DNA of 64,000 nucleotides from the NCBI RefSeq assembly GCF_030684315.1, contig NC_081360.1, forward strand, positions 29,061,818 to 29,125,817, given 5' to 3'. This document shows positions 1,755 through 54,775 of the stretch, piece by piece. Position 1 is the stretch's first letter. Every line of letters begins with the position of its first letter. The position numbers and the translations under genes were made by a program. The DNA is from Stegostoma tigrinum. Lineage: Eukaryota. The notes beneath the pieces are model-generated. The model saw only the letters and a program-made list of their open reading frames with translations, ran no database searches and had not been told where the DNA came from.

Positions 1755-1852
1755 GTTTTGTCTGATGAAGAGAAGAGGAAACAATACGACATGTATGGGG
1801 AAGAGGGCTTAAAAGAAGGTCGTCAAGGTTCCCATGATGACATATTTTCACA
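1755..1852 (+). CDS. DNAJB11: DNAJB11 (ERdj3) coding exon 3, end of J-domain
   Basis: ttag|GTTTTG...TCACA|gtaagt; translates [32 protein letters not shown](H), matching DNAJB11; 98 bp. Confidence 0.96.
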
Positions 1853-2283
1853 GTAAGTAGATGACTGATCATCTAAATTAGCAACTTTTTAGATGTATCT
1901 TAAATATATTTATCACAATTGTTTGTGACCAGTTTTACACTCTACTCTGGAATCCAGGGAAGATTACATTTATCAAAGAAATACCGAATTTATTTTCACT
2001 TGCCAGAGAAATGTGTTTTAAATTGTCTCTGGTTTTGATTGAAGGTTGAAGCACAGGGCTAATTTTAAACTAGAGGTAATTGTGTAACCATCAGAAATGA
2101 GAATAATGAGCAGTATATTTGTTCCCCCCCCACCCCTTCACTGTCTTTACCCAACAGCACAACAGCTGTTTGTGCAGCCTCCCTACTCCTAGTCGACATC
2201 AGTTAATTTAGCAAGGTTAAAGCATTGAACTTGGAAACTCCTTGGTCTTAATGGGTCAGAAATGATAACTTAGCTACAGTCTA

Positions 2284-2489
2284 AGAACCGAGAGAAGTAT
2301 GGATGCTGTACATCAGGAACAAAAACAAAGTTCCTGGAAAAGCTCAGCAGGTCTGGCAGCATCTGTGGAGGAGAAAACAGAGTTAATGTTACTCAGAAGG
2401 ATCACCAGACCCGAAACATTAACTCTTGTTTTCTCCTCCACAGATGCTGCCAGACCTGCTGAGCTTTTCCAGCAACTTTGTTTTTGTTC
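2284..2489. mobile_element. PLE-terminus-derived fold-back mini-element with 15-bp TSD
   Basis: ~76-bp inverted arms (about 2314-2390 and 2415-2491); flanking direct repeat CTTAGCTACAGTCTA at 2269-2283 and 2490-2504. Confidence 0.85.
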
Positions 2490-2494
2490 CTTAG

Positions 2495-2779
<285 letters not shown>

Positions 2780-5954: not shown

Positions 5955-6070
5955 TGGGGGCTTATGACACAGTGGTAGTGTTCTACTGCTAAACAGGAGG
6001 CCCAGGTTCCAAGACCCATCAGCTCCAGAGGTGTGAAATATTATCTCTGAACAGGTTGATTAGAAAATAT
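5955..6070 (+). mobile_element. Short (~115 bp) tRNA-derived SINE
   Basis: acagtggtag A-box, ggttccaagaccc B-box-like, tail ctgaacaggttgattagaaaatat; related copies at ~11900-12012, ~25078-25195 and ~63248-63352 (-). Confidence 0.65.
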
Positions 6071-6624
6071 AAAAATGAAGGCGTAACGTATGCTGTAGAT
6101 AAAGGGGTACCAGTGGATGTATTGCTTTTATAGTTCTAGAATGCATTTAATAAGGTGCCACACCAAAGATCATTGTGGAAAATAAAAGTTTGTAGTGTTG
6201 GTAGTAACTTTGGCATGGATAGAAGATCACCTTGCTAATGGGAAGCAGGGAATAGGAACAAATGGGTCTTTTTCAGACTGGTAGGATGTCACAAGTGGAA
6301 TGCCACAGGGTCGGTGCTGGAATCCCAACTTATTTATATAAATTATTTCAATGAAAGGATCGAAGGTAAGGTAGCTACATTGTCTGTTGACACAGGTAGC
6401 CATTGAGTTGTGAGGAGATTGTAAGGGGTAAGTAGGGAATACAGATGGGTTCAGCGAGTAGGCAAAGATCTAGCAAATAAAAGTACACGGTGGAAAAAGT
6501 ATGAAATTGTCCATTTTGGCAGAAAGAATAAAAAAAGCATTATCTAAATGGTGAGATTGGAGACCTGAGATGCAGAGGGTTTCTTGGTGCATGAATCCCA
6601 CAAGGTTAGTATGCAAGTACAGGA

Positions 6625-7920
6625 AATATCTCTGCCTCCTCCAGTGGTCCCCAGCATTACAGATACCAGTCTTCAACCAAGTCGAATCATGTGGAGTGAA
6701 ATCAAGAAATGGTTGGGGACACTGGATACTGCAAAGGCTATGGCCCGTAACAATATTTAAACAATAGGACTCAAGATTGGTGCTCCAGAACTTGCTGCTC
6801 GTCTAGTGTGGCATCAAGGAGCCCAGCAAAACTGGAATCAACGGGTATTGGAGGCAAACTCTCTGGTAGTTAGAGTTATACCTGACACACATAAGATGAT
6901 GATCGTGGTTGTTGGAGGTCAGTCATCTCAGTCCCAGGACATCTCTGCAGGAGTTCCTCAGGGTAGTCTCCTAAGCCTAACCATCTTTAGATGCTTCATC
7001 AATGACCTTCCCTCCATCATAAGGTCAGATGTGGGGATGTTCGCCAATGATTACACAATATTCAGCACCATTCATGATTTCTCAGATATTGAAGCAGTCC
7101 ATGTTCACATGCAACATATTATGGACAATATCCAGGCTTGGGCTGACAAATGGCAAATAACATTTGTGCCTCACAATGCCAGGCTATGACCATCAACCGT
7201 AAGAAACTAACTACCACCCCTTGGCATTCAACAGTGTTACCATCACTGACCCCAACCAACATACTGGGGGTTATTAGTGACCAGGAACTCAAACGGACTC
7301 ACCACGTAAATACAGTGGCTACAAAGAGCAGTTCAGAAGCTAGGAATACTGTGGCGGTAACTCACCCGCTGACTACCCAAAGCCTGTCCACCATCCACAA
7401 GGCACAACTCAGGTGTGTGATGGGATACTCCCCACTTGCCTGAATGAGTGCAGCCCCAACAACACTCAAGAAGGTTGACGCCAAGCAGGACAAAGCAGCT
7501 CACTTGATTGGCACTACATCCACAAGCAGCACCTCTCTCCATCACCGAAGCTTAGTATCAGCAGTGTGTACCATCTGCAAGATGCACAGTAGAAAATCAA
7601 CAAGGATCCTCAGACAGCACCTTTCAAACCCGTGACCACTTCCATCTAGAAGGAACAGGACAGCAGATATATGGAAACACCACCACCTTCAAGTTCCCCT
7701 TCAAGCCACTCACCATTCTGACTTGCAAATATATCGCCGTTCTGTCACTGTCGCTGGGTCAAAATCCTGGCATTCCCTCCCTAATGGCATTGTGGGTCAA
7801 TTCACATCAGGTGGACTGCAGCGGTTCAAGAAGGCAGCTCACCACCACCTTCTCAAGGGCAACTAGGGATGGGCAATAAATGCCAGCCAACAGCAGCGTC
7901 CACATCCCTCAAATGAATTT
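6625..7920 (+). mobile_element. Second CR1-clade LINE family, 5'-truncated RT plus 3' UTR, nested in the long CR1
   Basis: DISAGVPQGSLLSLTIFRCFINDLP...GMFANDYTIF; 3' tail ttctcaagggcaactagggatgggcaataaatgc. Confidence 0.85.
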
Positions 7921-8499
7921 TAAAAACAAAGTAATCAGGAAAGCTAATACAATGTTATATTACAAGGGGAATTGACTGCAAGATTAGGGAGGTTATACTT
8001 GGATTAAAAGTAGGATTCATCAGACTATGTACTGATTAGCATACTTGTGGAAGGATGTTAGAGTAGGAACAAGTTTCGAGAGTGTTTGTTCAACTAATAC
8101 CTGGAATGAGTGGATTGCCTTATGAGGAAAGGCTGGACAGGCTAAACCTCTATCCTCTTGGAATTTAGAGAAATCAGAGGTGACCTACTTGAAACACAAG
8201 ATCCTGAGGGGTGGGACCTGACCAGGTGGATGCTAAAAGAATGTTTCCCCTTGTTTCAGAATCTAAAACTAGGGGTTATAGTTTAGAAGTGAGGGGATGC
8301 TGATTTTAAAAAAGAGGAGGAAACTTTTTCTCCGAACGTTGAGAGTCTTTGGAATTCCCTTCTTCCAAAAGCATCGGATGAAGAATCTTTAAATATTTTC
8401 AAAGCAGAGGTAAATTCTTGATTTCCAAGGGGTGAAAGTTTTTGAGGATTTGCAGGAATGTAGAGTTGAGGTTAAAACCTGTTCAAATTTCCTTTTCCT

Positions 8500-8810
8500 T
8501 AATTCATGGGATCAGGGCGTCGCTGGCTAGGCAGCATTTATTGCCCATCCCTATAGTCCAGAGTTAACCACTCTGCTGTGGGTCTGGAGTCACATGTCAG
8601 CCAGACTAGGTAAGAATGGCAGTTTCCGTCCCTAAAGGACATTAGTGAACCAGATGGGTTTTTCCCCAACAATCGACAATGGATTCATGGTTATCATTAA
8701 ATTCTTAATTCCAAATACTTATTGAATTCAAGTTTCACTACCTGCCATGGTGGTATTTGAACCCAGGTCCCCAGAACATTATCTGGGTCTCTGGATTAAC
8801 AATCCAGTGG
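8500..8810 (-). mobile_element. tRNA-derived SINE sharing its 3' tail with the 6625-7920 LINE family
   Basis: Minus strand: B-box ggttcaaatacc near 8750-8765; tail tagggatgggcaataaatgc at 8535-8554 identical to the LINE 3' end. Confidence 0.7.
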
Positions 8811-9824
8811 CCTCCCCCTTAATGACCTTTGAATGGTGGAGCTCGATTTGAAGGGCCAACTGACCAACTCTAGTTACTTGTTCGTATGTATTAATAAATT
8901 AATCTTGCTGTTGTCTAGAGAGAATTCAAAATGTACAAACCAAAACAAAGTGGAACATTTGCCTCAATTTAAATATTGAATTGAGAATAATGGTGCTATT
9001 TCAATGTGTTCATGTCAGGGGTATTTAATCTTGAGATATTCACAGTCTCCTTTTGAGAGAGCCCGATTTGTTGTCTTCATTTAAAACTGGCATTGTTGAC
9101 GCAGCAGATGACTGATCCAGACATTGAGTAAAACCTAATAGAACTGCCAGGGCTAATTACTTTCTATTGAAAAATGACTAAAATAGGTGTTTAGGTTATT
9201 GCTACCTCTCTGAGTGATAGTTAATCTTTAATACATGATTTTTTAAAAAATCCTAAAATTCTATAGATGAATGTTTCAAGAAATATACAGCTAAAACTGT
9301 TTAAAATAAAAACAACTTATCATTTATTTATTTCTTCATTAGAATGTAGAAAAGCATGAACATAGTTTTGCCGAGGTTACTCGATGAATAAAAGTTTGCC
9401 TTTTTGTTGAAATGTTAGCTTGGTTTCTCTCTCCACCGATACTGCCGGAGCTGTTGAGTGTTTTCAGCATTTTCTGCCTCTACTTCCTAGGGAAATACTT
9501 AATTGAAAGACCAAAATGTCACCTAATATATTCTTAAAGTATTGCTGTGAGAAACTGAGTTGAGTGGAAATTATTTTGTTGCATCTGTGTACTGTTAGAT
9601 TGCAAAATTTATATCTTGACATTAATGTAACTATAATACTTCAGGTTTCAAGGTATAATTATTTGATCAACAAATTAATTTGAGCAATTAATGATTTGGA
9701 CTTGGAACAAAATTGTACACTATTATTCTACATTTTGTGTTGTGATGCTCAGCCTGATTTTTATTGTAACTTGATAGACCTTTTTTGCAATATAATTTAG
9801 AAACACACAAGGCAAAAATTGAGC

Positions 9825-11040
9825 TTTTTGAAGAAGTGACAAGGAGGGTTTATGAGGGCAGAGCGGTGGACATGATCTATATGAACTTCAGTAAGGTGTT
9901 TGACAAAATTCATCATGGTAGGCTGATTAGCAAGGCTGGGTCACACATATTACAGGGACAACTAGCTATTTGGACACAGAACTGGCTCAAAGGTAGAAGA
10001 GAGTGTGTTGGTGGAAGGTTGCTTTTCAGACTAGAGGCCTGTGACCAGTGGTGTGCCATAAGGATTGGTGCTGGGTCCACTGCTTTTCATCATTTTATAT
10101 AAATGATTTGGATGTGAACAAAGGCGGTATGTCAGTAAGTTTGCAGATGACACCAAAATTTGGGGTGTAGTTGACAGTGAAGGTTACTTCAGTACATTAG
10201 GATCTTGATCAAATGGGCTCAGGAGTGGCAGGTGGAGTTTAATTTAGATAAATGTCAGATGCTGCATTTTGGAAAGGCAAATCAGGGCACTACTTATACA
10301 CTTAATGGTAAGGGCCTGGGGAGTATTGCTGAACAAAGAGCCCTGGGATGCAGGTTTATAGTTCCTTGGAAGTTGAGCCACAGTTAGACAAGATAGTGAA
10401 GAAAGTATTTGGTATGCGGTATGTGTGCCTTTATTGGTCAGTTCATTGAGTTTAGGAGTTGGGAGGTCATTTTGCAGCTGTACAGGACACTGCTTAGGCC
10501 ACTATTGGAATACTGTCAGGTCTCCCTTGCTGTGGGAAGGATGTTGTGAAACTTGAAAGGATTCAGAAAAGATTTATAGGGATGTTTCCAGGCTTTGAGC
10601 TAGAGGGAGAGGCTGTATACACTGGGGCTATTTTCCATGGAGTGTCAGAAGCTGAGGGGTGACTTTACAGAAGTTTATAAAATCATGAGGGGCATGGATA
10701 GGGTAAATAGACAAGGTCTTTTCCCTGGGGTGGGGGAGTCCAAAATTAGAGGGCACAGGTTTAAGGGTGAGAAGGGGAAGATTTCAAAGGGACCTAAGGG
10801 GTAAGTTTATAATGCAGAGGGTGTGCATGTGTGGGGAGTGAACTGCCAGAGGAAGTGGTGGTGACTGATAAAATTACAATGTTTAAAAGGCATCTGGATG
10901 GGGATATGATTAGGAAGGGTTTAGAGCAATATAGGCAAAATGCCGCCAAATGGAATTAGATTTATTTAGGATATCTGGTCGGCATGGATGAGATGGACCG
11001 AAGGGTTTGTTTCCGTGCTGTATATCTCTAGGACTGTACA
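9825..11040 (+). mobile_element. CR1/HER1 LINE 3' portion
   Basis: EEVTRRVYEGRAVDMIYMNFSKVFDKIHH; aagtttgcagatgacacc (KFADDT); tail ggaccgaagggtttgtttccgtgctgtat. Confidence 0.88.
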
Positions 11041-11264
11041 TAATTAGGGTTGTCCCAACTGGAACATATTCTAGATATCATACCACTATTGTGAATTTAT
11101 CACTTGTCACATCACTTACGAATTTCAGCTAAAATTGAACAAATGCTTTCTTGGATATGAGGAATTATGTATTTATAGTTAGTAAATTTTTTAAAAATGT
11201 AGTTCCTAATTAATGTAAGCCTTAAAAATCTGTTTTTATCACACTTTTTCTCTGTCTTCCTCCA

Positions 11265-11822
11265 AAAGGTTTTTAAAGTCTTGAAGAACATAGATAAAAT
11301 GAATAGCAAAGGTCTTTTCCCTAAAGTTGGGGAGTTCAAAACCACGGGGCATATTTTTAAATTGAGGGAAAATATTTAAAAGACATGAGGGATAATTTTT
11401 TTTTAATAGAGGTTAGTGTGATGAATGAATTGCCAGAGGAAAAGGTGGATGCAGGTACAGTTATAATATTAAAAGACAGTGGATAAGTACGTGAATAGGA
11501 AAGGTTTGGAGAGATATGGGCCAAAGGCAGGCAGGTAGGTAGGACTAGCTTAGTTTGATGTGGACTTGCCGGTGTCTACCCCAGTCCAACAAAGTCAGAA
11601 GTCAGTCCAACAGGTTTATTTGAAATCACAAGCTTTCATAGCGCTGCTCCTTTGTCAGGCCTTCAGGACTTTAGCTGATGAAGAAGCAGTGTTTTGAAAG
11701 CTTGTGATTAAATAAGCCTGTTGGACTATTATCTGGAGTCATGCAACTTCTGATTTTAGTTTGAAAACATTGTGGACCAGTTGGACAGTAGGGTCAGTTT
11801 CCATGCTGTATGACTCAGTGAT
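11265..11822 (+). mobile_element. CR1/HER1 3' fragment interrupted by a PLE mini-element
   Basis: Homologous to 10670-11035; tail tttccatgctgtatgactc. Confidence 0.75.
11559..11755. mobile_element. Fold-back PLE mini-element (second family) with two opposed hammerhead motifs and 9-bp TSD
   Basis: Inverted arms 11604-11658 and 11675-11727; CTGATGAAGAAGCAGTGTTTTGAAAGCT (+) and CTGACAAAGGAGCAGCGCTATGAAAGCT (-); TTAGTTTGA at 11550-11558 and 11756-11764. Confidence 0.75.
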
Positions 11823-12299
11823 TCCTGGGGAAGAATTCAACTGGTACTTCATTTTAAGGGGTTATTTTGTACATGTCATATTTATAAACATTGTTTTGTA
11901 GCCCAGTCTTGTCGTACACTAGCAATGTCCCTACCTCCCTGAAGCAGGAGGCATGGGTTTAGGTCCCGACTGCTTCAGAGGACTGCTGTAACATTTCTGT
12001 TCAGAAAATATTTTAAAGACTGAAGCTTGGTACTTGTACTTGAAGGCAGTAGTTTAGCTTCTCGCTATAGTTTCCGCTAACCGCTCCTGTGCTACCCATT
12101 CCAAAAGAAAATCATAAGGGTCCTGAGGTAAATTATACTCCTGCTCTATTTTAACTATTCTGACTGAATGTAGCTACATTGCCAGATACGTGTAATGTTC
12201 CTGGTCGATCATCTAAATTTATAGTTAATTTGTCCATTGAGTCAATGAGAGAAGGAGAGAGGCTCTGTGTCTGAATGCCTGCAGGTGACGTAAATGTAA

Positions 12300-13720
12300 T
12301 AAAATATGTTGTACAGATGATGTGGGAAGAATACAGTTGGATATAGGTTGTGGACAAAAATCTAGCAGATAGAATATAGTGTGGGAAAGTGTGAAGTTCT
12401 TCATTTAAGAAGGAACCATAAAAAGCAGAATATTATTGAACTGGAGAATAGTTGTACAATTCAAGTGTAGAGAGATTTGTTTCATTGCACGACTATCAAA
12501 GAGTTGGTATGCAGGCCATGGCCCCTCTAATTTTGCTGCTGTGTGGATCTCCGTGATCCATACGTGGCAGTAACTTCTGTAACTGGAAGTCATCACATCT
12601 GTACACTGGCATGCATGGACCCTCCAAGCAGTTGCACGACTTAGAGGGAACATTGTATGCAGGTACAGAAAATGATTAGGAAGGCTCATCGGATGCTATC
12701 CTTTTACTGTGACAGGAACTGAATGTAAAAGGATGGAGGCTGTGCTTCAGTTGCATTAGAGGCAGTTCACAGGAGATTTACTAGATTGATATCTAGAATG
12801 AGTGGCTTGTCTTATGAGTAAAGATTAGATAGCCTGGACTTGTTTTTATCAGACTTCAGAAAAGTAAGGTGAGATTTGATTGAAGTTTATTAGGTCCTGA
12901 ACTGTCTTGATAAGATGGATATGGAAAAGATGTTTCCTTGTTTGGGTGAGTCCAGACCAGGGGACGTTGTTTGTTTGTTTTTAAATTAACGTTGCCCTTT
13001 TAGGACAGATGTGGGAAATGTTTCTTCTCAGGGGCTAAATGACTTTGGAGCCCTCTATTTAGGAGTTTGGGGGGCATTGAATGTTTTTAAGGCAAAGGTA
13101 GATTAGGTTCAATACCCAACAGGAATGTAAAGTTAAAAATTGTGGAGCTAGAAAAGGTCGGAAAGCATTTAAGCAGGTAAGTCAACATTTCGGGATGGAA
13201 TCCCTTCTTCAAACTGCTTATGATGGTCTGAACATTACCTGGAGTCTGTGGGGGATAAGCTGGCTGTATCGACAAGCATTGAAGAAGGAGTCATGGCTGT
13301 AGTATTGAGATTGCTTCAGAATGTAGTTAGGAGTTTCAAGACAGAGGGGTTGGAGTGGGAGAGAGACTCACTGAGCTCTCTTGAGGGAGGAGGAAATACC
13401 CTTCAAGGTGGGCATCCTTAGAGGCTTCGCAGTATGGTTTTCAGTGATTTGGAGACAGCAAGGATACTGGAAGCTAGAGCCAAAAAAAGGAGCTGGAAAA
13501 GCACAGGAGGTCAGACAGCATCTGAGGAGCAGGAAAGTCAACGTTTCAGATCAGAAGCCTTCTTTTGACTCTAGTTTCCAGAACTTTCCATCTCCAAGAC
13601 TAAAAGGTTATCAGAGGTAGATTAGAATGTGGAATTCACAACACGGCAGATCCGCCATGATCACATTGAATGTTTAAGCAGGCTTGAATGGCCTACTTTT
13701 GCTTCTAATTCGTGTTTGTA
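12300..13720 (+). mobile_element. Decayed CR1 3' half with nested insertions, including a PLE-derived segment at ~13135-13590
   Basis: CR1 RT C-terminal and 3' UTR similarity (ggcttgaatggcctacttttgcttctaattc); PLE terminal motifs at 13185-13213 and 13480-13565. Confidence 0.65.
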
Positions 13721-17298: not shown

Positions 17299-19494
17299 CT
17301 TACAGTCTAATATTGGAGACCTGTCATTTGACTTTCACAAAACAGACTTTGTTCTCTCCAGCTGCTTGCTAAAATAAAACCTGATAGTTTTATAACCCAG
17401 GTGAGCTGAGTTTCCAACCCCCATAGCCTGTCTGTCACTAAAACAATTTGCTTCCATCTCTCAACACTAACCACTTGAACTTGAACCAACTCTGTTTTGG
17501 AAATCTTTATCTCTCATGAATTCTCTCTATTTCACTCCCAAATGATGTTCTGGTTGTTTGTTTCTCTGCCCTTGCTGACCTCCTTTGCTTCCTCCATGTA
17601 CTGGATTAACAAATCAACTGTAGTTTGTCCTTGCTGTGATCCTCCAGATCCTTCAATCTGGTCACATGCCAGCAGTTGTTGATCTTGCCTTGACTACTGT
17701 CTGGTGTTCCCTGCCTTAATGTTTTGCTATACTACTTTTCCATGCTTCCAAAACTCCTTACTTTTCAACTATCCTCCTCGGTCTCCTCTTGCTATACTCA
17801 TACTCTGTGGTATGCTTTTACATATTCTAGTTGTTTAAAGGCAATGCATGACTAAATGCTATTATAAATATGAACTGGTATAAAACTGACACCAAATGTT
17901 GCTGTTATCCAAGCAAAAGACGACGTTCTGTTCTCTAGCTGAGCTAACAACATTTTGAAGTGCTCAATGGCTTTCATGGTTGAGCAGATTGGCCTGCCCA
18001 CAGCTTTGGCACGAATTCAAGGGTTCAATGCGGTCAGGCAGCTAATGTAGCAGAAGAAATATAATTGTTTCGTTTTTTTTCTGAAAAAGTTACAACCAGC
18101 TAAAGCAGTTTGGGGTTTTTTCATCCCAGCTTGGTTTAATTTTTACAGGTCTTTAAGTGAATCCTACCATTTCTGCTTCAAACAACTGGATGACTGTGTA
18201 AAGATGCAGATTGATTCCAATGCTCATTGTGAAGTCCCAGTTATAATTTTCAAAAGAGGAAGTAGTGGAACAGGGACAGTGTATGCTGGTCCTAGGTCTA
18301 ACCAAGTAAGATTAAAGTAACTACTCATGCCACAGATAAAAGTCAGGCTTTTGTTTTTGTTAAAACTCAGGACAAGTGTTCATGTTCTTGGCAGAACAAA
18401 AATCTTATGTGATGACTAGCCCATTCTTAATTTCCTTCTCCACTTGTCCTCCATTTAGGGATATTTTCCCCTTTCACTCCCCTTGCCAATCAAAGTCAAT
18501 GATAAATCAAAATTACAAATTACGTTTACTGGCTCCAAGGAGGATGGCACCATAGAAAGGAATCATCACCTGATGAACAATGGATTAATGGAAACTACTT
18601 TGTCTATGAGGTTGATATCAGATGCAGTTTTACAAAGAAAAGTCAAATGTTTGCACTTCCAGTTGCAACTTCCAAAATTTTCTGTTTTGATCATTTTTGC
18701 TGTTTGTTTATGTGATGTATGGTGTGTGATTTGTATATATTTTAATGTTTCTTTTTGTGATTTTGGACTTGAATTAATATCATATGGGTTTGTGTGACTG
18801 AAAAGGCTTAGTTAACTTGTATTTCTGTAAACAGTGTTAGAGAGAATCTGGAGAGTAATATGATGTTACATTGGAAAAGTTTATGAGCAAACAAAGTCAA
18901 CTGTTGTGCATGGGTTCAGTTTGAAAGGTTGCAGTTTGATTTTTTTTTTCTTGATTATGGAAATACCTATAGCTTGAGGGTGGGTAAATAAACTTTAGTT
19001 TCAGTTTGCTTAAGTATTGAGGTTGCTTCTAAGAAAGGGAGGTAATTTTGGGACTGCTAAGAAAGTGGTTACCTCAGTGTACTAAACTTAGTTTAAAGAC
19101 TCCACATCAGATGCCTTTAGTTAAAACCCTGAAGAGGTTATCTGAAGCTGAGAGTCTTAGCTCAGTTATGAGGGTTCTGGGAAAAACTAATTCTCAAGAC
19201 CCAGAATTGAAGCCAAAGTTAAATTTAAATTTTAGATTTAAAAGAGAATGAAATTCTCTCTGGTCCAAGTACTATAAAGGAGTATTGTTGGGATTAATGA
19301 GATGGTGTTTTACTGCGTTCAAAATCTTCATTTTGCTACACTTTGGATCATTGCATTTATCTTCATTTCTAGAACTTCTGTTTTATTGTTAAACCTGAAT
19401 CCACAGCATTGTGTACTACTCTTTACCTGAAAGACTATCACGTTAAAACAACAAACAAAATCTGAGCTATCAAACCAGATTTCAGTCTGGGAGT

Positions 19495-21228
19495 GATAAT
19501 AGGAACTGCAGATGCTGGAGAATCGGCAATAACAAGGTGTAGAGCTGGATCAGCATAGCTGCCCGAACAGCATCAGAGGAGCAGGAAAGCTGACATTTCG
19601 GGACTAGACCCTTCTTCAGAAATGAGGGAGGCGAAGGGGATTCTGAAATAAATAGGGAGGGGGCGGGAGATGGATAGAAGATGGATAAAGGAGAAGATAG
19701 GTGGAGAGGAGACACAGGTCAAAGAGGCGGGGGTGGAGCCAGTCAACGTGTGTGTAGGTGCGGAGTTAGGGAGGGAATAGGTCAGTCCAGGGAGGATGGA
19801 CAGGTCAAGTGGCAGGATGAGGCTAGTGGGTAGAAGGTGGGGGTAGGGCTTGAGGTAGGAGGAGGGGGGGATAGGTGGGAGGAAGGACAGGTCAGGGAGG
19901 TGGGGACAATCTGGGCTGGTCTTGGGATGAGGTATGGGGAGGGGAGATTTTGAAGCTTACGAAGTTGACATTGATACAATTGGACTGCAGGGTTCCCAAG
20001 TGAAATATGAGGTGCTGTTCCTGCAAACTTTGGGTGGCATCGTTGTGGCACTGCAGGAGGCCCAGGATGGACATGTCATCTAAGGAGTGGGAGGGGGAGT
20101 TAAAATGGTTCATGACTGGGAGGTGAAGTTGTTTGTTGCGAACCAAGTGTAGGTGTTCCAGGTGGAAACTGATATCCATTTCAAGCCTACCACCTCCCAC
20201 AGTTACCTAGAATACACTTCCTCCCACCCTTCCTGCAAGAATGCCATCCCCTATTCCTAATTCTTTCGCTTCCGCTGCGTCTGCTCCCAGGATGAGGCAT
20301 TCTGCTCCTGAACATCTCGGATCTCCTCATTTTTCAAGGACCCCCCCCCCCCCAGTAAAGAACACCCTCAACTGTGTGTCCCACATTTCCTGCAACTCAT
20401 CCCTTACACCCCCTCTCTGCAATAACAACCAAAACAGAATCACCCCTCATTCTCATGTACTACCCCACCAACCTCTGGATCCAACGCATCATCCTCTGAC
20501 ACTTCCGCACATCTGCTAATGTGGTATACTGTATCCACTGTTCCAGATGAGATGGTCTCTACATCGGGGAAACCAAGCGGAGGCTTGGGAACAGCTTTGC
20601 AGAACCCCTACGCTCAGTTCACAACCAACAAATGCACCTCCCAGTCGCGAACCAGTTCAACTCTCCCCGTCCCCACCCCCACTCCTTAGATGACATGTCC
20701 ATCCTGCGCCTCCTGCAGTGCCACAACGATGCCACCCAAAGGTTGCAGGAACAGCACCTCATAGTTCGCTTGGGAACACTGCAGCCCAATGGTATCAATG
20801 TGGACTTCACAAGCTTCAAAATCCCCCTCCCCCACCACCCCCCCCCCCCCCCAACCGTAACCCAAAACCAGCCCAGTTTGTCCCCCACCTCCCTGACCTG
20901 TCCTTCCTCCCACCTATCCCCACCCCCATCTCCTACCCACTAGCATCATCCTGCCCCCTTGACCTGTTCATCCTCCCTGGACTGACCTATACCCTCCCTA
21001 AGTCCCCACCTACACTCACCTTTACTGGCTCCACCCCCGCCTCTTTGATCTGTCTCCTCTCCACCTATCTTCTCCTTTTATCCTTGTATCTGCCTCCCCC
21101 TCTCTCCCTATTTATTTCAGAATCCCCTTCCCCGTTTCTGAAGAAGGGTCTAGGCCCGAAATGTCTGCTTTCCTGTTCATCTGATGCTGTTTGGTCTGCT
21201 GCATTCATCCAGCTCACACCTTTTTATC
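19495..21228. mobile_element. Penelope-like element with inverted halves (GIY-YIG domain), 14-bp TSD
   Basis: 19495-~20160 on -, ~20160-21228 on +; NVVYCIHCSR*DGLYIGETKRRLG at ~20518-20590; hammerhead motifs at 19592-19619 (-) and 21138-21165 (+); TTCAGTCTGGGAGT at 19481-19494 and 21229-21242. Confidence 0.9.
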
Positions 21229-22353
21229 TTCAGTCTGGGAGTTATAACTTAAGCAGTTATAACCTCATCTTAAGTCAAAACAATAGGAAGTGTTTTTGTA
21301 CACCAGCTTATCATTACATTAAAATATCAATTTGAAATTGTCCAGTTGTTACAAAATATGTACTTTAACTCCTGGTCCCCTCATTTAAAAAAAAACATCC
21401 AAACTCAATTGTCTGCTTGCGTTACAAGAATTCTGAACCACAAACTTTTCCCGTAGTGTTTGTAATGGTACTAATTATAGTCTGGAGGATAGACTGTTCC
21501 TGTTGTCTTCTGCATGTCATATTCCACCTTTTTGAGACAGAATGCTTCATTACCTTGTTGTATTGACCTATTGAGATATAGCAAAAATAAGGGAAGAAGG
21601 TTGAATGTCCACTGAAGCACAAATTCATCATGTGCTGGTAGAGAATTCTACGCTGCATTGCTTCCATTTCTGGGCTTCTCATACTCTTCAACTATAATGA
21701 GGTTCAAGTTCTGATTCTTTTTGTAGGTGGTTATGTAATTTCATTATGTTGCAGTAACAAATTTAATAGCATCTATTTCACCTTTCACATGCTTTAAGTA
21801 TTAAAGTCCTTCACAGTGAATTTGACACTTTAAATGCTCACTGATTTTGTTGGTTACCTGGCAACCAGTCTGCATCTTGTAGGTTTCTGTAAGCTTTAAT
21901 GAATTAGGTTATGAAATAATTTGGTCTTGTGCATTCACGTATGGGCTAGGATGTAGCAGAGCTTACCTGCTCATATTTGAATGGTGATACAAGATCTTTA
22001 GCAGCAACCTGAAGACGCAGGTGTAGCATTTGTCTAATGTCTCATTGAAAGGTAAACCTTCTGACAGTCCCTGAAGTGTTGTCATAGTCTACCAATTGAA
22101 ATGGGATTTGCAGTGTGACCTGCCTTGGCTGAATGTAGTATTGTTGAACCAGGCCAGGACTTTAAATGTATGAATACTTGCGCAGGGAGAATGATGTATG
22201 TGCAAGTGTTAAAATGAGGATTTGGCAGCTTGCCTGGTTTTATATAACGCTGCCAGAAACAGTATTGGTTTCAGCAAATGGGTTTTCTATTTATATAACA
22301 GGTACCTTTTTCACATGTGTGAAGATTAAGTTGTACATTGTGCTTTATCACAG

Positions 22354-23714: not shown

Positions 23715-26575
23715 TCACAAGGTTGGTACTTATTGCCCATTGCTAATTATCCTCTGTGCTGGAGGTGAAGCAATTTCTTAAACTCTTAGTGCTGTTAAGT
23801 CATGAGTTTCAGGAATTTGACCCAGAGACTTTGATAGAACAATGATAAATCAGGATAGTATGTGACTTGAAGGGAATACGAAAGTGGTGATCTTCCTGCT
23901 TGCTTGCTGCCCTTGCTCTGCAAACAGTAAAAATGGATTTCAGAGATACCATCAGAAGTTTTGGCAATTGCTGAAGTGCATCTCAGATGCTGGACACTAG
24001 CCGTGGTGATGATAGGAAAGAATGTTTAAGGTGCTATATGAAGTTTTTAAAAATTCATCTTGGAATGTAAATGATGGCCTCTTTAATTTATTCACAAGAT
24101 GTGGACATTGGTTAAGCCAGCCTTTATGTCCAGAGTGCTGTTAAGCAACAACCATATTGCTATGTGCCTGAAGTCGCATGTAAGCTAGTTCTGGTAAGGA
24201 GGCCATTTCCTTCCCTAAAGGACAACATTTACAGCCCAGCCCCAGTTGTTCTTGATGTGGCGGTGGGCTGTTTTCTTGAACTGCTATAGGTCCGTAATGC
24301 TTTTGAGGAGAGAATTCAAGGATTTTGTCCCAATGACACTGAAGGAACAGCAATATATTTTCAAGTCAGGATGGCGAGTGGTTTAGAGGGGAACTTGCAG
24401 ATGATATCGTTCCCATGTATCTACTGACCACCTTCTAGGTGGTAGTGGTTGTAGGTTTGGAATGTGCAGTCTGAAGATCTTTGACATGTGCACTGCAGAA
24501 ATTCAGTGTTGGAGGGAGTGGATGTTTGTGGGTGTGGCATCAATGCAGCAGGCTGCTTTGTCCTGGACGATGCCATATTTCTTGAATGTTATTGGAGCTG
24601 GACTTATCCAGGCAAATGAGGAGTACTCCCTTACACTCCTGACTTGTGCCTTCTAAATAATGGACAGGCTTTGGGGAATGAAGAAGTGAGTTACTCATTA
24701 CAATGTTCCTAGCCTCTGACCTGCTGTTGTTGGGACTGTATTTTTATGGCTAGTCAAGTTCAGTTTCTTGTCAATTTCATGGCCCCATGATACTGTTAGT
24801 GGGAGATTCAATTTTGCTAACACCGATGAATAGCAAGGAACAGAGTTCTCTAATTGGCGATGGTCATTACCTGGCATTTGTGTGGTGCAAATATTACTTG
24901 CCACTTGTCAGCCCAAGCCTGATATTGTGCAGGTTTTGCTGCATTTGTACATGCTTCAGTACCTGGGGAGTTGCAAATTGTGCTGAACATCTTGCAATCA
25001 TCAAAAAAACATGATGGAAGGAAGGTCTTTGATGCAAGTGGGGAAATATGCACCTAAGACACTACCCCAAGGAACTAGAGCTCTTGTGCTGTAGTGGCAA
25101 CGTCCTTATCTCTAAGTGAGAGAGCTTGAGTTTAAGTGCCACCTTCTATGGATGTGTATAATAACATTCTGAGCAGGTTGATTTTAGAAAATATCTACCT
25201 TAGGAGCTCCTGTGGAGATCCTGGAGCTGAAAGACCGATTTCCAGTAAACACAACCATCTTCCTGTGTGCCACATATGACTCCAACCAGTGCAGAGCTTT
25301 TACCCTAATTCCCATTGACTTGTTTTGATCAGGCTCTTTGATGCCACACTCGGTCAAATGAAGCCTTGGATGTTAAGAGCAGTCATTCTCATCTCATCTC
25401 TCGAATTAAGCTGTCCTGATCATGTTTGAATCATGGTTTTAGTGAGGACAGGAGCTGAGTGGCCCTAGCAGAACCCAAATTGAGTGCTCGTTACTGTTTA
25501 AGTGTTGCTTGGGATGATATTTGGCCTCAGAAATAGTAGGAACTGCTGATGCTGGAGAATCTGAGATAACAAGGCCTGCTGTGTTCATCCAGCTCTACAC
25601 CGTGTTGTCTAATGTTTGGCCTGCTTTTTTTCTGAATCAGACATTCCTGTGCAATTGTCCACATTGTTGGGCAATGCCAGTGCTGTTGCTATACTAAAGT
25701 AATTTGACTAGGGGTGTGGCAAGTTCTGGACCACAAGTCTTCAGCAGAGTTGTTGAATATTGTCAGGGCCCATAGCTTTTTTTCAGAATGTCGTGCCTCC
25801 AGCAGTCCTTGTTATTCATGAGGAGTGAGTTGAATTGGTTGAAGTTGACTGCTGTGCTGGGGACCACTGGATGATGCCAAGTGGATCATCTGCTTGTCTC
25901 TACTGGCTGAAGATTTGGAACGTTTGAGTCTTAACGTTTGCATCCATCTGCTAGGCTGCCCTATCATTGAGGATACTTGTGAAGCCTCCAGTGAATTGTT
26001 TAATTGTACACCACTATTCAGGACTGCAGAGCTTCAATCTGATCCATTTATTGTGGGATTGCTTAGGTCTGTTTATCACTTGCTGCTTTTGTTTGCAAAA
26101 ATCCCACTTTTGTAGCTTCAAGTTGACACCTCAATTTTAGCTACATCTAGTGCTGCTCTTGGCATGCCTTTTTGCACTCTTCTTTGAGCTAGGGTTGATC
26201 CCTTGGCTGGATGGTAATGCTAGAGTGGGGGGATACGCTGGGTCATGAGGTTGCAGATTGTGTTGGGCGTACAATTCTGCTGCTGAAGGCCCATAGTGCC
26301 TCATGGATCTCGCTTTTCAGTTGCTAAAAATGTTTGAAGTCTGACCCATTTAGTATGGTGAGAGCACCCCACAACATGCTATAAAGTATTATCAGTGTGC
26401 AGGAAGGATTTTGTCTTTACAAAGACTATGGTGGTGGTCATTCATCTCTAACGACAAGTGTGTCTGAAGCCAGCAGATTGGTGAGGACGAGATCACTTAT
26501 GTATTTCCCTCTCGTTGGATCCCTCACCACCAGCCTAGCATCATGTCCTTGCTGCCAAGCCAGACTTGGTGATGA
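23715..26575 (-). mobile_element. Decayed copies of the second CR1-clade family with nested SINEs and a PLE fragment (~25530-25610)
   Basis: AWADKWQVIFAPHKCQVMTI on -, homologous to 7140-7190; tail reverse complement ttattgccca. Confidence 0.8.
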
Positions 26576-39640: not shown

Positions 39641-39761
39641 ACTGTTAGATGTTATCCACAGTGAAAAGAAATTGTACCTAGTGTTTGAGTTTCTGAATCA
39701 AGATCTGAAGAAGTATATGGACTCTGCTCCTCCTACTGGACTCCCTTTGCAATTAGTTAAG
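39641..39761 (+). CDS. CDK2: CDK2-like exon 3
   Basis: cttag|A...AAG|gtaatt; [40 protein letters not shown]; 121 bp. Confidence 0.95.
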
Positions 39762-40074
39762 GTAATTAAGAATTAAACTTATCTTGACATAATTTACACA
39801 GGTTTGGAACGTCATGCAGATTTTCATCACCCAAATGCCAATTCTCCCCATTTTTGACTAACTTTTCCCCATCAACCCTTCTTCGTGATTCAAACCTGTC
39901 ACCATTTTCATTCTGGGAAGACATACAGTTAATAATTTCCCAAGCTTTTGCTAATTTGTAGCTTAAGTCAACCACAAACAGAAGTACAAATACAGAGATG
40001 TTTTGATTGTTTTTATTCTAACACTGTTGTGCCTCATTATTGGCACAGTCACAAGAATGAATAAAATTGTGGAA

Positions 40075-43000
40075 CAAAAGCACACGTTGCTGGAAAAGCT
40101 CAGCAGGTCTGGCAGCATCTGTGAAGAAAAAAATCAGAGTTAATGTTTTGGGACCAGTGACCCTTCCTCAGAACTGATTGTAGCTGGGAAAACGTTTGTT
40201 TATATACAGAAAATAGAGACGAGAATGGGGTGGGCAGTAAACAATAGGATAAAGGTTAGAGGCAGAAAAGAGAGAGAAGCGCAGTAGGATAAATGAAGGA
40301 GTTGATAACGATCTGGCTAAGAGGGTGAATCATTGTTAATGGGACCTGTTAGTGACTGACAGTAGGTAGTATGTAATGGTAGGCTATGTGATATCAAGAC
40401 CTGATATGTCAGGTAGGGGCTAGGATATAGGAGAGTTTAGATCCTAAAATTATTGAACGCTACATTGAACCTGGAAGGTTGCAGGGTCCCCAAGTGGAAA
40501 ATGAAGTGTTGTTCTTCTAGCTTGCATTGAGCTTCTTTGGTACACTGCAGCAAGCTAGAGACAAGAAATGTGGACCAGGGAACAGGGTGGTGTGTTAAAG
40601 TGGCAGACAACTGGAAGCTCAGGGTCTTTTTTGCAAGCAGAATGTAGATGTTCTGCGAAGCGGTCACCCAGTCTACGCTTCACTTCCCCAAGGTAGAGGA
40701 AACCACATCATGAGCAGCAAATACGGTTGACTAGATTCTGGGAAGTGCAGGTGAAGTATTGCTTTGTCTGGAAGCTATGTTTCGGCCCTTGGATAGTGGG
40801 GAGGGAGGATGTAAATGAGCTGGTGTTGCACCTTTGCTGGTTACAGAGGAGGGTGCCATGGAGCTCTGGGGGTTGTTTGGAGTGAAGGAAGACTGGACCT
40901 GGGTGTCCCGGAGGGAACAGTCCCTGTAGAAGGCAGAGCAGGGACGGGAGGGGAAAATGTGTCTGGTGGTGACATCTGGCTGGAGGGTCCGGAAAGGGTG
41001 TCTGGATCTTCTGGATGTGGATGTTGGTGGGGTGGTAGGTAAGGACAAGGGGAACCCTATCACTGTTGCGGGCAGGAAGAGAGGGGTGAAGGCGGAATTG
41101 TGGGAGATGTGTCAGTCCTTTTGAGGGCCCTGTCAAAAACGGTGTTGGGGAATCCTCAATTGAGGAAGAAGGTGAACATTTCATAGGCTCCCTTGTCAAA
41201 GTTGGCCTGATCTGAACGTATGTGACAGAGATGGAGGAACTGAGAGAATGGGATGGAGTCTTTATTGGAAGCAGGGTGTGAGGATGTATAATCCAGGTAA
41301 CTGTGGGAGTCGGTGGGTTTATAGTGATATTAGAGGCAAGTCTATCTCCAAAAATGGAAGCAGATATTTTGAGGAAGGGAAGTGAGGAGTCAGCGATAGA
41401 CCAGTGAGGGCAGGGTGGAAATTGGAAGCAAAATCATGAACTATTCCAAATCTGGACGAGAGAAGGAAGCAGCACCGATGATATCATCGATATATGGAAG
41501 AAAGAGTTGTGGGACAAGGCCAGAATAGGACTGAAACAAGGAATGTTCCATGTCCCCCACAAAGAAACAGGCATAACTGAGGACCATGCGGGTACCCCAT
41601 GACCACCCCTCTGACCTGAAGAAAATAAGAGGAGTTAGAAAAGAAGTCGTTGAGGGTGAGGATGAGCTCGGCCAAGCAGAGGAAGGTGGTGCTGGGTGGA
41701 GATGGTTCAAGTCTTTGCTTCAGGAAGAAGCGGAGAGCCCTAAGACCCTCTGTGGGGAATGGACGTGTAAAGGGATTGCACGTCCATGATAAAGAGGAGA
41801 TGACAGGAACCTGCAAACTGGAAATTTTGAAACCGGCGTAGGGCATCCGAGGAATCACGGATAAATGTGAGCGGGGATTGGACTGGGGAGAGAAGACTGA
41901 GTCAAGTTAGGAAGAGATGAGTTCTGTGGGGCAGGAGCAGCCTGAAACAATGGGTCTGCCCAGACAGTCGTCTTTGTGGATTTTTGGAAGGATGTAGAAA
42001 CGAGCTGTGTGGGGCCGGGGGACTATCAGCTTGAAGACAGAGCCAGGGGGAGGTCACCAGGTGAAATGAGATCAGTTACTGTAGACACAATGGCCTGATG
42101 TGTCATGGTGGGGTCATGGTCCAGGGGAAGATAGGATGAGGTATCTGAGACCTGCCTCTGCAATGTAGAGATCAGTACACCAGACAACATAAACACCACT
42201 CTTATTGGCAGGCACATGGGTTAAATCTAAGCACACCGAGTGCAGTCAGTTCGGGGGGAGATGGGTTGAATTTGGTGAGGGAGTGAGCAGAGAAATTGAG
42301 GCAACCAATATAATGTCAATATTTCTCAGTGAACAGATCGAGTGCAGGTAAAAGGCTAGAGACAGGAGGCCAGGTGGAAGGACGGTGCTGGAACTGGACA
42401 AAGGGGTCTGTGGGATGGGGAGAGGACTCGTGTCCAAAGAAATGGGAATGGAGCGGAAGACGGCGGAAGAAGAGTTTGATGTCATGTCGTGCCCAAAATT
42501 CGTGAAGGTTGGGACACAGAGGAATAAAGCTGAGGCCTTTGCTGAGTACAGAACATTTCAGCATCAGAGAGCGGAAGCTTAGGAAGGATGGTGAATACCC
42601 AACAGGAGATGGGGTTGGGAGAGGAATTGAAGTCAGAGGGAAGAGGAGGAGAGGAAGGTTCCAGAGGGCCATGAGTACCTCTGAGTTGTTGCATCTTGTG
42701 GGCCTTGATACCTCAAAAGAAAAAGTTTCTTGTTAGCACAACAAATGAGTCGGAGGACGAAGTGGAACTGTGGAATGATGCAACTCTGAGCCAGTATTTT
42801 GCAATGGTGTTAGAGAAGAAGGTCAAGAGTGTGCATGTGATGTGCATGGTACTGAGTGTGGATGTCAGGATGTGGTGAAAGCAGTTGTCTGTGGAGCTTT
42901 GAAAGTCATAGAGAAATCTGTGATCCTGGGAGAATTCAAAACATGAGGGTTGAAACTTCAGTCAGAATCCACGTGGGGTGAGGGTGAGCTGGGGGCAGTC

Positions 43001-43227
43001 ACTGAGGAATGTGACATGGATGTAGAAACGAGTTTTACCAAATACTTGGTCAAACACCTGGACTGACAGTGAAATTAATGTCGATGGACAGGAACAAAGA
43101 TTGGAATAGAAATCCTGTCGGAGAGAGGAACAGAACTTCTTCAAGGTGGGCATGCCTAGAAGAGATGTGGTATTGAGTTAAATACTAAATAAAAATCGAA
43201 AGAACTGTGGATGCTGTAAATCAGGAG
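40075..43227 (-). mobile_element. Near full-length, decayed Penelope-like retroelement (RT + GIY-YIG), circularly permuted, 13-bp TSD
   Basis: SVLSKGLSFIP, GV.MG..GP, LFLPYIDDIIG (~41470-41506), RVPLVLTYHP, FTCTSQNLV.RI, EEQHFIFHLGTLQP; TAAAATTGTGGAA at 40062-40074 and TAAAATTATGGAA at 43228-43240. Confidence 0.92.
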
Positions 43228-43309
43228 TAAAATTATGGAATCTGACGTACAGAATTATGAGAATAAACCCATACCGTTACATTCTGTGGCACCACACTTC
43301 AGAATTTTT

Positions 43310-46063: not shown

Positions 46064-46321
<258 letters not shown>

Positions 46322-54411: not shown

Positions 54412-54775
54412 TGGAGGATCATCCCCAATGGACTACAGTTCACATTCAGGCCTTTCCAATTTGGTCCCAGGTGTGACAATGCCTATATTCAGAACATTGG
54501 GACCCTTCAGAAGCGTTTTTCCCTGCGACTCCTGAACAGATCCTCCCCAATGGACTGTGGTCCACATTCAGATCTTCCCAGTTTGGCCCCAACAGTGACA
54601 ATGTCTACATTTAGAACATTGAGATCCTTCAGAAACTTTTCTTTCTGCGGCTCCTGAAACACACACTTGTAGTAATGCGCTGGCATCTCAAAGGGTCTAG
54701 GCCTGAAACATCAGCCTTCCTGTTCCTCTGATGCTGCATGGCCTGCTGTGTTCATCCAGCTCTACACCTTGTTAT
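54412..54775 (+). mobile_element. Internally deleted PLE with tandem 122-bp duplication and 12-bp TSD
   Basis: Repeat units start at 54417 and 54539; PLE terminus from ~54690; AACAGATGATGA at 54400-54411 and 54776-54787. Confidence 0.75.

What the first reader, a model, noticed from the sequence alone, without database searches (positions are those of the whole stretch)
40062..43240. Circularly permuted, unit-length Penelope element in CDK intron 3
Seen: the ~3.15-kb PLE between 13-bp TSD copies has ends that are contiguous in the family terminal sequence. The right end ...GGATGCTGTAAATCAGGA (43209-43226) joins the left end GGAACAAAAGCACACGTTGCTGGAAAAGCTCAGC (40071 onward). Together they recreate the uninterrupted GGATGCTGTACATCAGGAACAAAAACAAAGTTCCTGGAAAAGCTCAGC seen at 2301-2348. 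So there is one unit, opened about 70 nt downstream of the hammerhead, with almost no redundancy instead of the usual pseudo-LTR duplication. Inference: cDNA made once around a circular (ribozyme-processed and ligated) RNA, or a unit-length copy from a tandem-array transcript. The GGAA shared between TSD and element suggests microhomology priming.
Basis: partly seen in the sequence, partly recalled or inferred. Interest (0 to 1): 0.75.

Follow-up and report, generated by a model that had tools for sequence, protein, structure and literature searches.

The report
One-unit Penelope copy without end-repeat
This is an old, broken, full-length copy of a Penelope-type jumping gene in an intron of a CDK2-like gene; it is exactly one unit long, likely because copying began at the family's usual start point and was joined off one unit later where the landing site happens to resemble that same point, so by itself it does not show a circular RNA.

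Summary
One 3,153-nt Penelope-like (PLE) unit lies antisense in intron 3 of a CDK2-like gene, between target duplications (12/13, extending to 14/16). Its two ends meet within ±3 nt of the family's head-to-tail junction, which contigs of all 4 runs laid also show.

The reading needs correcting. The 'opening point' is not a random permutation. It is the family's usual tail-less 3' end (site A): 7 of 17 PLE arms scored in the window end there, 9 end after the tail. Only the 5' end is unusual. It has a local explanation: the target begins GAATAAAA, 7/8 like site A (GAACAAAA). So the 5' end was likely joined by microhomology after one lap of a linear, end-redundant RNA.

A one-lap product (5'-to-3' strand transfer, or a covalent circle) is not excluded. 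No genome or RNA run was available to test enrichment. PLE copies without pseudo-LTR, solo ORFs starting at the tail, and the circle hypothesis are all in print. The scan noted similar one-lap mini-copies elsewhere in this genome.

The parts
40059..40074 (+). Left target-site duplication, 16 bp. Its last 4 nt (GGAA) also read as the element's site-A end; its first 8 nt match site A at 7/8.
43225..43240 (+). Right target-site duplication, 14/16 identical; both differences are A/G transitions.
40075..43224 (-). One PLE unit (3,150 nt unshared; 3,153 nt with the junction letters), no pseudo-LTR duplication, antisense in the host intron.
40071..40075 (-). 3' end of the element = site A, the family's tail-less end (likely RT start site).
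   Evidence: PMC11167929 for the two start sites
40142..40171 (-). Minimal hammerhead-like motif (CUGAGGA, stem II, AAAACAUU). The first G of the GAAA box is A in this copy. Predicted cut next to 40142.
   Evidence: no Rfam hammerhead hit
40437..43153 (-). Broken full-length ORF: N-terminus, RT (YIDD motif), degenerate Cys linker, C-terminal GIY-YIG; many stops and frameshifts.
   Evidence: tblastn with 750-900 aa relatives; RVT_1 and GIY-YIG in those relatives
43180..43226 (-). 5' end of the element = the 'tail' between site A and site B. Other copies end (3') at 43180-43182 and up to about 43192.
39641..39761 (+). Host CDK2-like gene, exon 3 (start approximate).
46103..46273 (+). Host CDK2-like gene, exon 4 (bounds approximate).
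2269..2504 (.). Reference short inverted insertion of the same family, 15-bp TSD. One arm ends at site A; the other runs across the junction and ends after a 32-nt tail.

Best explanation
This is a decayed, full-length Penelope-like retrotransposon copy whose two ends both lie at the family's site A, likely because its enzyme primed at site A on a nicked AT-rich target, copied one whole unit of a probably linear, end-redundant or tandem RNA, and was likely joined to the second target strand at the upstream site A by a short match. Shown: the unit, the 16-bp duplication, site A as a standard 3' end, the head-to-tail junction in the family, and the target's likeness to site A at both ends (GGAA, 4/4; GAATAAAA vs GAACAAAA, 7/8). 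Inferred steps: (1) the GIY-YIG domain cuts both strands 16 nt apart; (2) the strand ending GGAA pairs with UUCC at site A and primes cDNA; (3) RT copies hammerhead, 3' UTR, ORF, 5' UTR and tail and runs about 8 nt into the upstream U-rich site A, where the rU:dA hybrid is weak; (4) the A-rich cDNA end pairs with the other target strand and second-strand synthesis fixes the join. The product lacks the upstream pseudo-LTR, which carries the promoter in Drosophila Penelope (PMC2377424), so it was likely dead on arrival.
For: Site A is a standard 3' end: 7 of 17 scored arms end at A, 9 after the tail, 1 about 10 nt past A (read by eye; 5 of 22 rows dropped). Two RT start sites with the tail between them are shown in vitro. 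The head-to-tail junction is common in all 4 runs, so end-redundant templates exist. Only 197 of 60,802 window positions (0.3%) match site A at 7/8 or better; 1.9% match at 6/8. A second cDNA end about 8-10 nt past site A is in the hairpin at 25517-25622, another family. In one search the top 5'-type loose end is in the other U/A tract (43195, 21 contigs, A-rich continuation). Microhomology 5' joins are described for PLEs, and so are TSD-flanked copies without pseudo-LTR. A rough estimate gives 2-15 copies within ±3 nt of A per genome from background truncation alone (inference).
Against: The 7/8 match holds only if the left TSD copy is ancestral; the right copy gives 6/8. Six places in the unit match the left target 8-mer at 7/8 or better, three of them in the first 60 nt, so site A was not the only option. 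The junction also fits a cDNA that stopped after exactly one lap with 1-3 nt of overrun. The 43195 pile could equally be one-lap copies primed at site B. Its agreement (0.44) and median length (85) lie between flank (0.37, 255) and family run-on (0.70-0.74), so it may not be 5' ends at all. In the anole element the RNA needs ORF sequence beyond the start sites, which a simple pLTR-ORF-pLTR transcript lacks at its 3' end; that favours tandem, circular or jumped templates. Drosophila solo ORFs that start with the 34-bp repeat suggest a site-specific rather than target-dependent 5' end.
Confidence: 0.5

Rival explanations
1. One lap by strand transfer. RT primes at site A near the RNA's 5' end, runs off the end (giving the abundant ~100-nt stubs), sometimes jumps to the redundant 3' end of the same RNA, copies the ORF and stops on meeting its own start.
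For: The terminal 144-nt bin is about 400-fold deeper than the 5' ORF bins (4.3 million vs about 10,000 summed depth in X1; not a copy number). Five window stubs start at the hammerhead's front edge (read by eye). The binding region in the anole RNA lies in the ORF start.
Against: It does not need the 7/8 match beyond the lap point. No pile of 5' ends was listed at 43179-43181 next to the counted 3' ends at 43180-43182 (only 6 of 162 rows were shown, so this is weak).
Confidence: 0.18
2. One reading: the RNA is cut at two hammerheads, ligated into a 3.15-kb circle, and copied once around from site A.
For: Exact unit length ±3 nt; hammerhead-like motif in the family; published hypothesis; small hammerhead circles exist in animals (PMC7229834).
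Against: Minimal PLE hammerheads cleave poorly. In the anole element cleavage was not needed, uncut RNA was the main substrate, and no RNA reads ended at the cut site. A seamless circle leaves no mark that separates it from the other models at this locus.
Confidence: 0.12
3. Site-specific 5' end: the element's endonuclease cuts the intermediate at site A, or a bound protein blocks RT there, whatever the target and wherever priming began.
For: [quoted passage not shown] The tail is ascribed to endonuclease resolution.
Against: The primary Drosophila sequences were not seen. It does not explain the extended target match. No enrichment at A could be measured here.
Confidence: 0.12
4. The copy inserted with a normal ~100-nt upstream pseudo-LTR, which was later deleted through the match between its site A and the start of the right TSD.
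For: The same 6-7/8 match would serve. Microhomology deletions often disable Penelope copies. The copy is old.
Against: Both samples of this species show the same right junction. It needs a second event that happens to spare the whole TSD.
Confidence: 0.08

Closest known systems
Penelope copies without terminal repeats, and the solo ORF flanked by 34-bp repeats (Schostak 2008, PMC2377424; Introduction, Discussion and passages read)
   Same: Single ORF unit, TSD-flanked, no pseudo-LTR; the solo form begins with the tail repeat, as here.
   Different: The Drosophila solo form also has the repeat at its 3' end (34-bp overlap); this copy ends at site A, so the overlap is about zero. Different PLE clade.
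Anole Poseidon PAc, internal RT initiation (Frangieh 2024, PMC11167929; parts 1-2 of 4 read)
   Same: 3' ends at two fixed sites downstream of the hammerhead with the tail between; AT-rich target.
   Different: PAc primes without homology, and its ORF starts in the hammerhead. Here there is a 4-nt match at priming, and the main ATG lies about 70 nt past site A.
Neptune/Nematis-type endonuclease-bearing PLEs (Craig 2021, PMC8557442; passages read)
   Same: RT plus C-terminal GIY-YIG, Cys linker, tail, hammerhead, 5' truncation, inverted arms in sister copies.
   Different: No partial tandem or inverted copy at this locus; clade not placed on a tree.
Circular-RNA model for PLEs and animal non-LTR retrozymes (PMC4209133, parts 1-2 of 4; PMC7229834, passages; bioRxiv 10.64898/2026.07.22.740005, part 1 of 5)
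   Same: Hammerhead-bearing unit whose ends join head to tail.
   Different: Retrozymes are 200-400 nt, non-coding, usually tandem, with shown circles; this is a 3.15-kb coding monomer with no RNA evidence.

Membership tests
EN+ Penelope-like element | One ORF with RT followed by GIY-YIG endonuclease | tested here: met
   Collinear tblastn with P0059, P0066, P0067, P0075 over 43081-40443; these carry RVT_1 and/or GIY-YIG. Direct Pfam scan of 9 broken pieces: 0 hits.
EN+ Penelope-like element | CCHH zinc motif in the endonuclease | tested here: inconclusive
   Cys pair region is interrupted by a stop; two His present (by eye; definition).
EN+ Penelope-like element | Minimal hammerhead in the terminal repeat | tested here: met
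   CUGANGA / stem II / GAAA pattern in 10 aligned window copies, decayed in this one. No Rfam hit. Cleavage not tested.
EN+ Penelope-like element | Optional 30-40 nt tail | tested here: met
   32-nt tail at 2285-2316; tail ends at 43180-43182 in 119 contigs.
EN+ Penelope-like element | Pseudo-LTR / partial tandem (common, not obligatory) | tested here: not met
   Absent in this copy. The junction it rests on is present in the family; copies without it are known.
Neptune/Nematis clade | CX2-5CxxC linker before the endonuclease | tested here: inconclusive
   C-x4-C-x2-S at about 40840-40820: two of three Cys.
Neptune/Nematis clade | RT phylogeny | not tested
   No tree built; no named reference set at hand.
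Circular-RNA-derived insert / retrozyme | Circular RNA joined at the hammerhead cut | not testable with these tools
   No RNA holder listed.
Circular-RNA-derived insert / retrozyme | Short non-coding tandem unit | tested here: not met
   3.15-kb monomer with ORF.
Circular-RNA-derived insert / retrozyme | Excess of copies with matched 5' and 3' ends | tested here: inconclusive
   One search showed 6 of 162 loose-end rows; the 43195 pile fits several readings; site A itself was outside the stretch laid.

The most novel reading that the evidence does not exclude
Exact one-lap copies are a real class: PLE reverse transcriptase primes near the RNA's 5' end and reaches the ORF only by jumping to the redundant 3' end, like retroviral strong-stop transfer, or by going round a ribozyme-made circle, and it stops at its own start. 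Pseudo-LTRs would then be overrun products, and this copy a full-length record of the lap.
Probability: 0.3. Interest if true: 0.7.

Novelty: new member of a known kind. Interest (0 to 1): 0.3.

Why it matters
How PLEs regenerate their pseudo-LTR is an open question: Schostak 2008 says there is no obvious mechanism. Long copies with both ends mapped are the data that can decide between linear, jumped and circular templates, and this family is abundant enough for a census. One copy cannot decide it, and this one has a target-sequence explanation. Its value is to fix the right test: pair each long copy's 5' end with its own 3' start site, and control for target microhomology.

Tried and rejected
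Whole genome: none held, so no census of long copies. RNA: no RNA holder listed; this is no evidence either way. Pattern scans: 0 hits in viral contigs and 0 in metagenomes. A shorter pattern gave 7 loci matching only over 22-23 nt, GC 53-66%, treated as chance. Rfam: no hammerhead hit. Folding single copies did not give the hammerhead and no z-score was below -1.5. Pfam on 9 ORF pieces: none. Word-based homolog search among longer proteins: none; the full scan gave 84. Reads on the whole element: the loose-end table was swamped by the terminal repeat and some events were not counted. The other two organisms' listed pieces did not cover the junctions, so filled or empty site is unknown. Rejected: assembly artefact at the junctions; chance TSD; random permutation point; opening at the hammerhead cut (67-71 nt away). 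Earlier-findings look-ups by sequence, near place and words for a full-length one-unit copy gave nothing or only unrelated or mini copies. PMC3681739 passages added nothing.

Full report
Observation. The sequence is as described. Two differences are expected for a copy this old, and the chance of such a repeat is about 2e-4. The unshared element is 40075-43224. Against the family junction at 2301-2348, the ends overlap by 3 nt or miss by 3 nt, depending on how shared letters are assigned: one 3,153-nt unit. Contigs of two samples of the species carry both junctions. Joints from the right end back to the left end occur in all 4 runs laid, from three organisms. Earlier notes call the organism a shark; I did not test that.

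What it is. The minus strand holds a broken full-length ORF from an ATG at 43153 to about 40437. It is collinear with 750-900 aa relatives that carry RT and GIY-YIG domains. The Cys linker is degenerate but Neptune/Nematis-like (definition). A minimal hammerhead-like motif lies at 40171-40142 with a substitution in its GAAA box; Rfam does not detect it. The host is CDK2-like, exons on the plus strand, and the element lies between exons 3 and 4. Most contigs laid are under 95% alike, so the copy is old.

The 3' end is ordinary. One search listed 22 hits for two PLE families in the window. I dropped 5: two rows of a third-family locus that runs on into its ORF, this element's own 5' end, one weak hit and one duplicate. 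Of the 17 left, read by eye, 7 end at site A, 9 end about 30-45 nt later after the tail, and 1 about 10 nt past A. Hairpins at 2269-2504, 19481-21247 and 25517-25622 have one arm of each kind inside one TSD. This matches the two RT start sites shown for the anole element (PMC11167929, parts 1-2 of 4 read; supplements not read, and its Fig. S2 may bear on 5' ends). So any PLE copy that reaches the ORF start is 'permuted' relative to its RNA. The only special thing here is that the 5' end is also at A and begins with the tail.

The 5' end has a local cause. The target starts GAATAAAA (left copy) or GAGTAAAA (right copy); the element at site A reads GAACAAAA: 7/8 or 6/8. Only 0.3% (197 of 60,802) or 1.9% of window positions match site A that well. 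Against this, six places in the unit match the left 8-mer equally well, and I cannot tell which copy is ancestral. The target also ends in GGAA, matching site A at the primed end. Other window TSDs share at most one letter there by eye, so priming does not need such a match. A second cDNA end 8-10 nt past site A is in the 25.5-kb hairpin.

Population test, partial. With no genome held, I laid one run's contigs on 43060-43215: 1,716 laid, 554 only partly, 6 of 162 loose-end rows shown. 3'-type ends pile at 43180-43182 (51, 37, 31 contigs). The top 5'-type row is 43195 (21 contigs, A-rich, agreement 0.44). If rows are ranked by count, all others hold 11 or fewer. That pile fits drop-off and microhomology in U-tracts, one-lap copies primed at B, or a divergent subfamily. 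Site A was outside the stretch, because tail-bearing stubs would swamp it. Summed depth suggests of the order of 450 copies with this 5' UTR (9,057 against about 20 for single-copy flank; the tool warns this is no copy number). A background of 0.1-0.5% 5' ends per base (inferred) would give about 2-15 copies within ±3 nt of A by chance. This is a rough estimate.

Mechanism. I commit to priming at A, one full pass over a linear end-redundant or tandem RNA, and a microhomology join at the upstream A (0.5). All enzymatic steps are inferred. The junction sequence alone cannot separate the first three.

What is known. TSD-flanked Penelope copies without terminal repeats, and a solo ORF flanked by 34-bp repeats, are described (PMC2377424: Introduction, Discussion and passages; its source paper not seen). 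The circular-template idea is in PMC4209133 (parts 1-2 of 4). Tail and microhomology joins are in PMC8557442 and PMC3846280 (passages). Retrozyme circles are in PMC7229834 (passages) and bioRxiv 10.64898/2026.07.22.740005 (part 1 of 5; supplements closed). In the listings of five searches I saw no census of exact unit-length PLE copies; subscription papers are not covered.

Verdict. Real, well bounded, a known kind of product with a tidy coincidence that the target sequence largely explains. Interest 0.3. The one-lap class remains possible (0.3) and would be worth 0.7.

Noticed in passing
window 25517-25622: Small hairpin of a second PLE family with an 11-bp TSD (1 mismatch); the tail-bearing arm stops only about 8-10 nt past site A.
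   Followed up: partly
window 19481-21247: 1.75-kb head-to-head PLE insertion with a 14-19 bp TSD, tail on the left arm only, and endonuclease-coding pieces inside.
   Followed up: partly
window 13165-13562: Third PLE family, minus strand: hammerhead-like motif, tail, 5' UTR and about 200 nt of ORF start, then a second hammerhead-like motif; a roughly 350-nt mini unit; no TSD found.
   Followed up: partly
window 2285-2362 and 43178-43225: An ATG just downstream of the hammerhead opens a frame through site A and the tail that is the frame of the main ORF, with one TAA at 43180-43178 between. It may be an upstream ORF or the original ORF start.
   Followed up: partly
window 55017, 55450, 15272, about 36072, about 2396: Short PLE arms begin at the front edge of the hammerhead core, a likely RNA start (by eye).
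   Followed up: partly
window 43120-43167: Local depth peak at the ORF start (up to 44,000 against 6,000-12,000 beside it): a stretch shared with other PLE subfamilies.
   Followed up: no
window 1755-1855 and about 2612-2745: Exons of a DnaJ-type gene upstream of the CDK gene; weak DnaJ hit (E 0.083); likeness to DNAJB11 is recalled, not tested.
   Followed up: partly
window 54417-54658: Two tandem copies of about 122 nt, 80% alike; not PLE-like.
   Followed up: no
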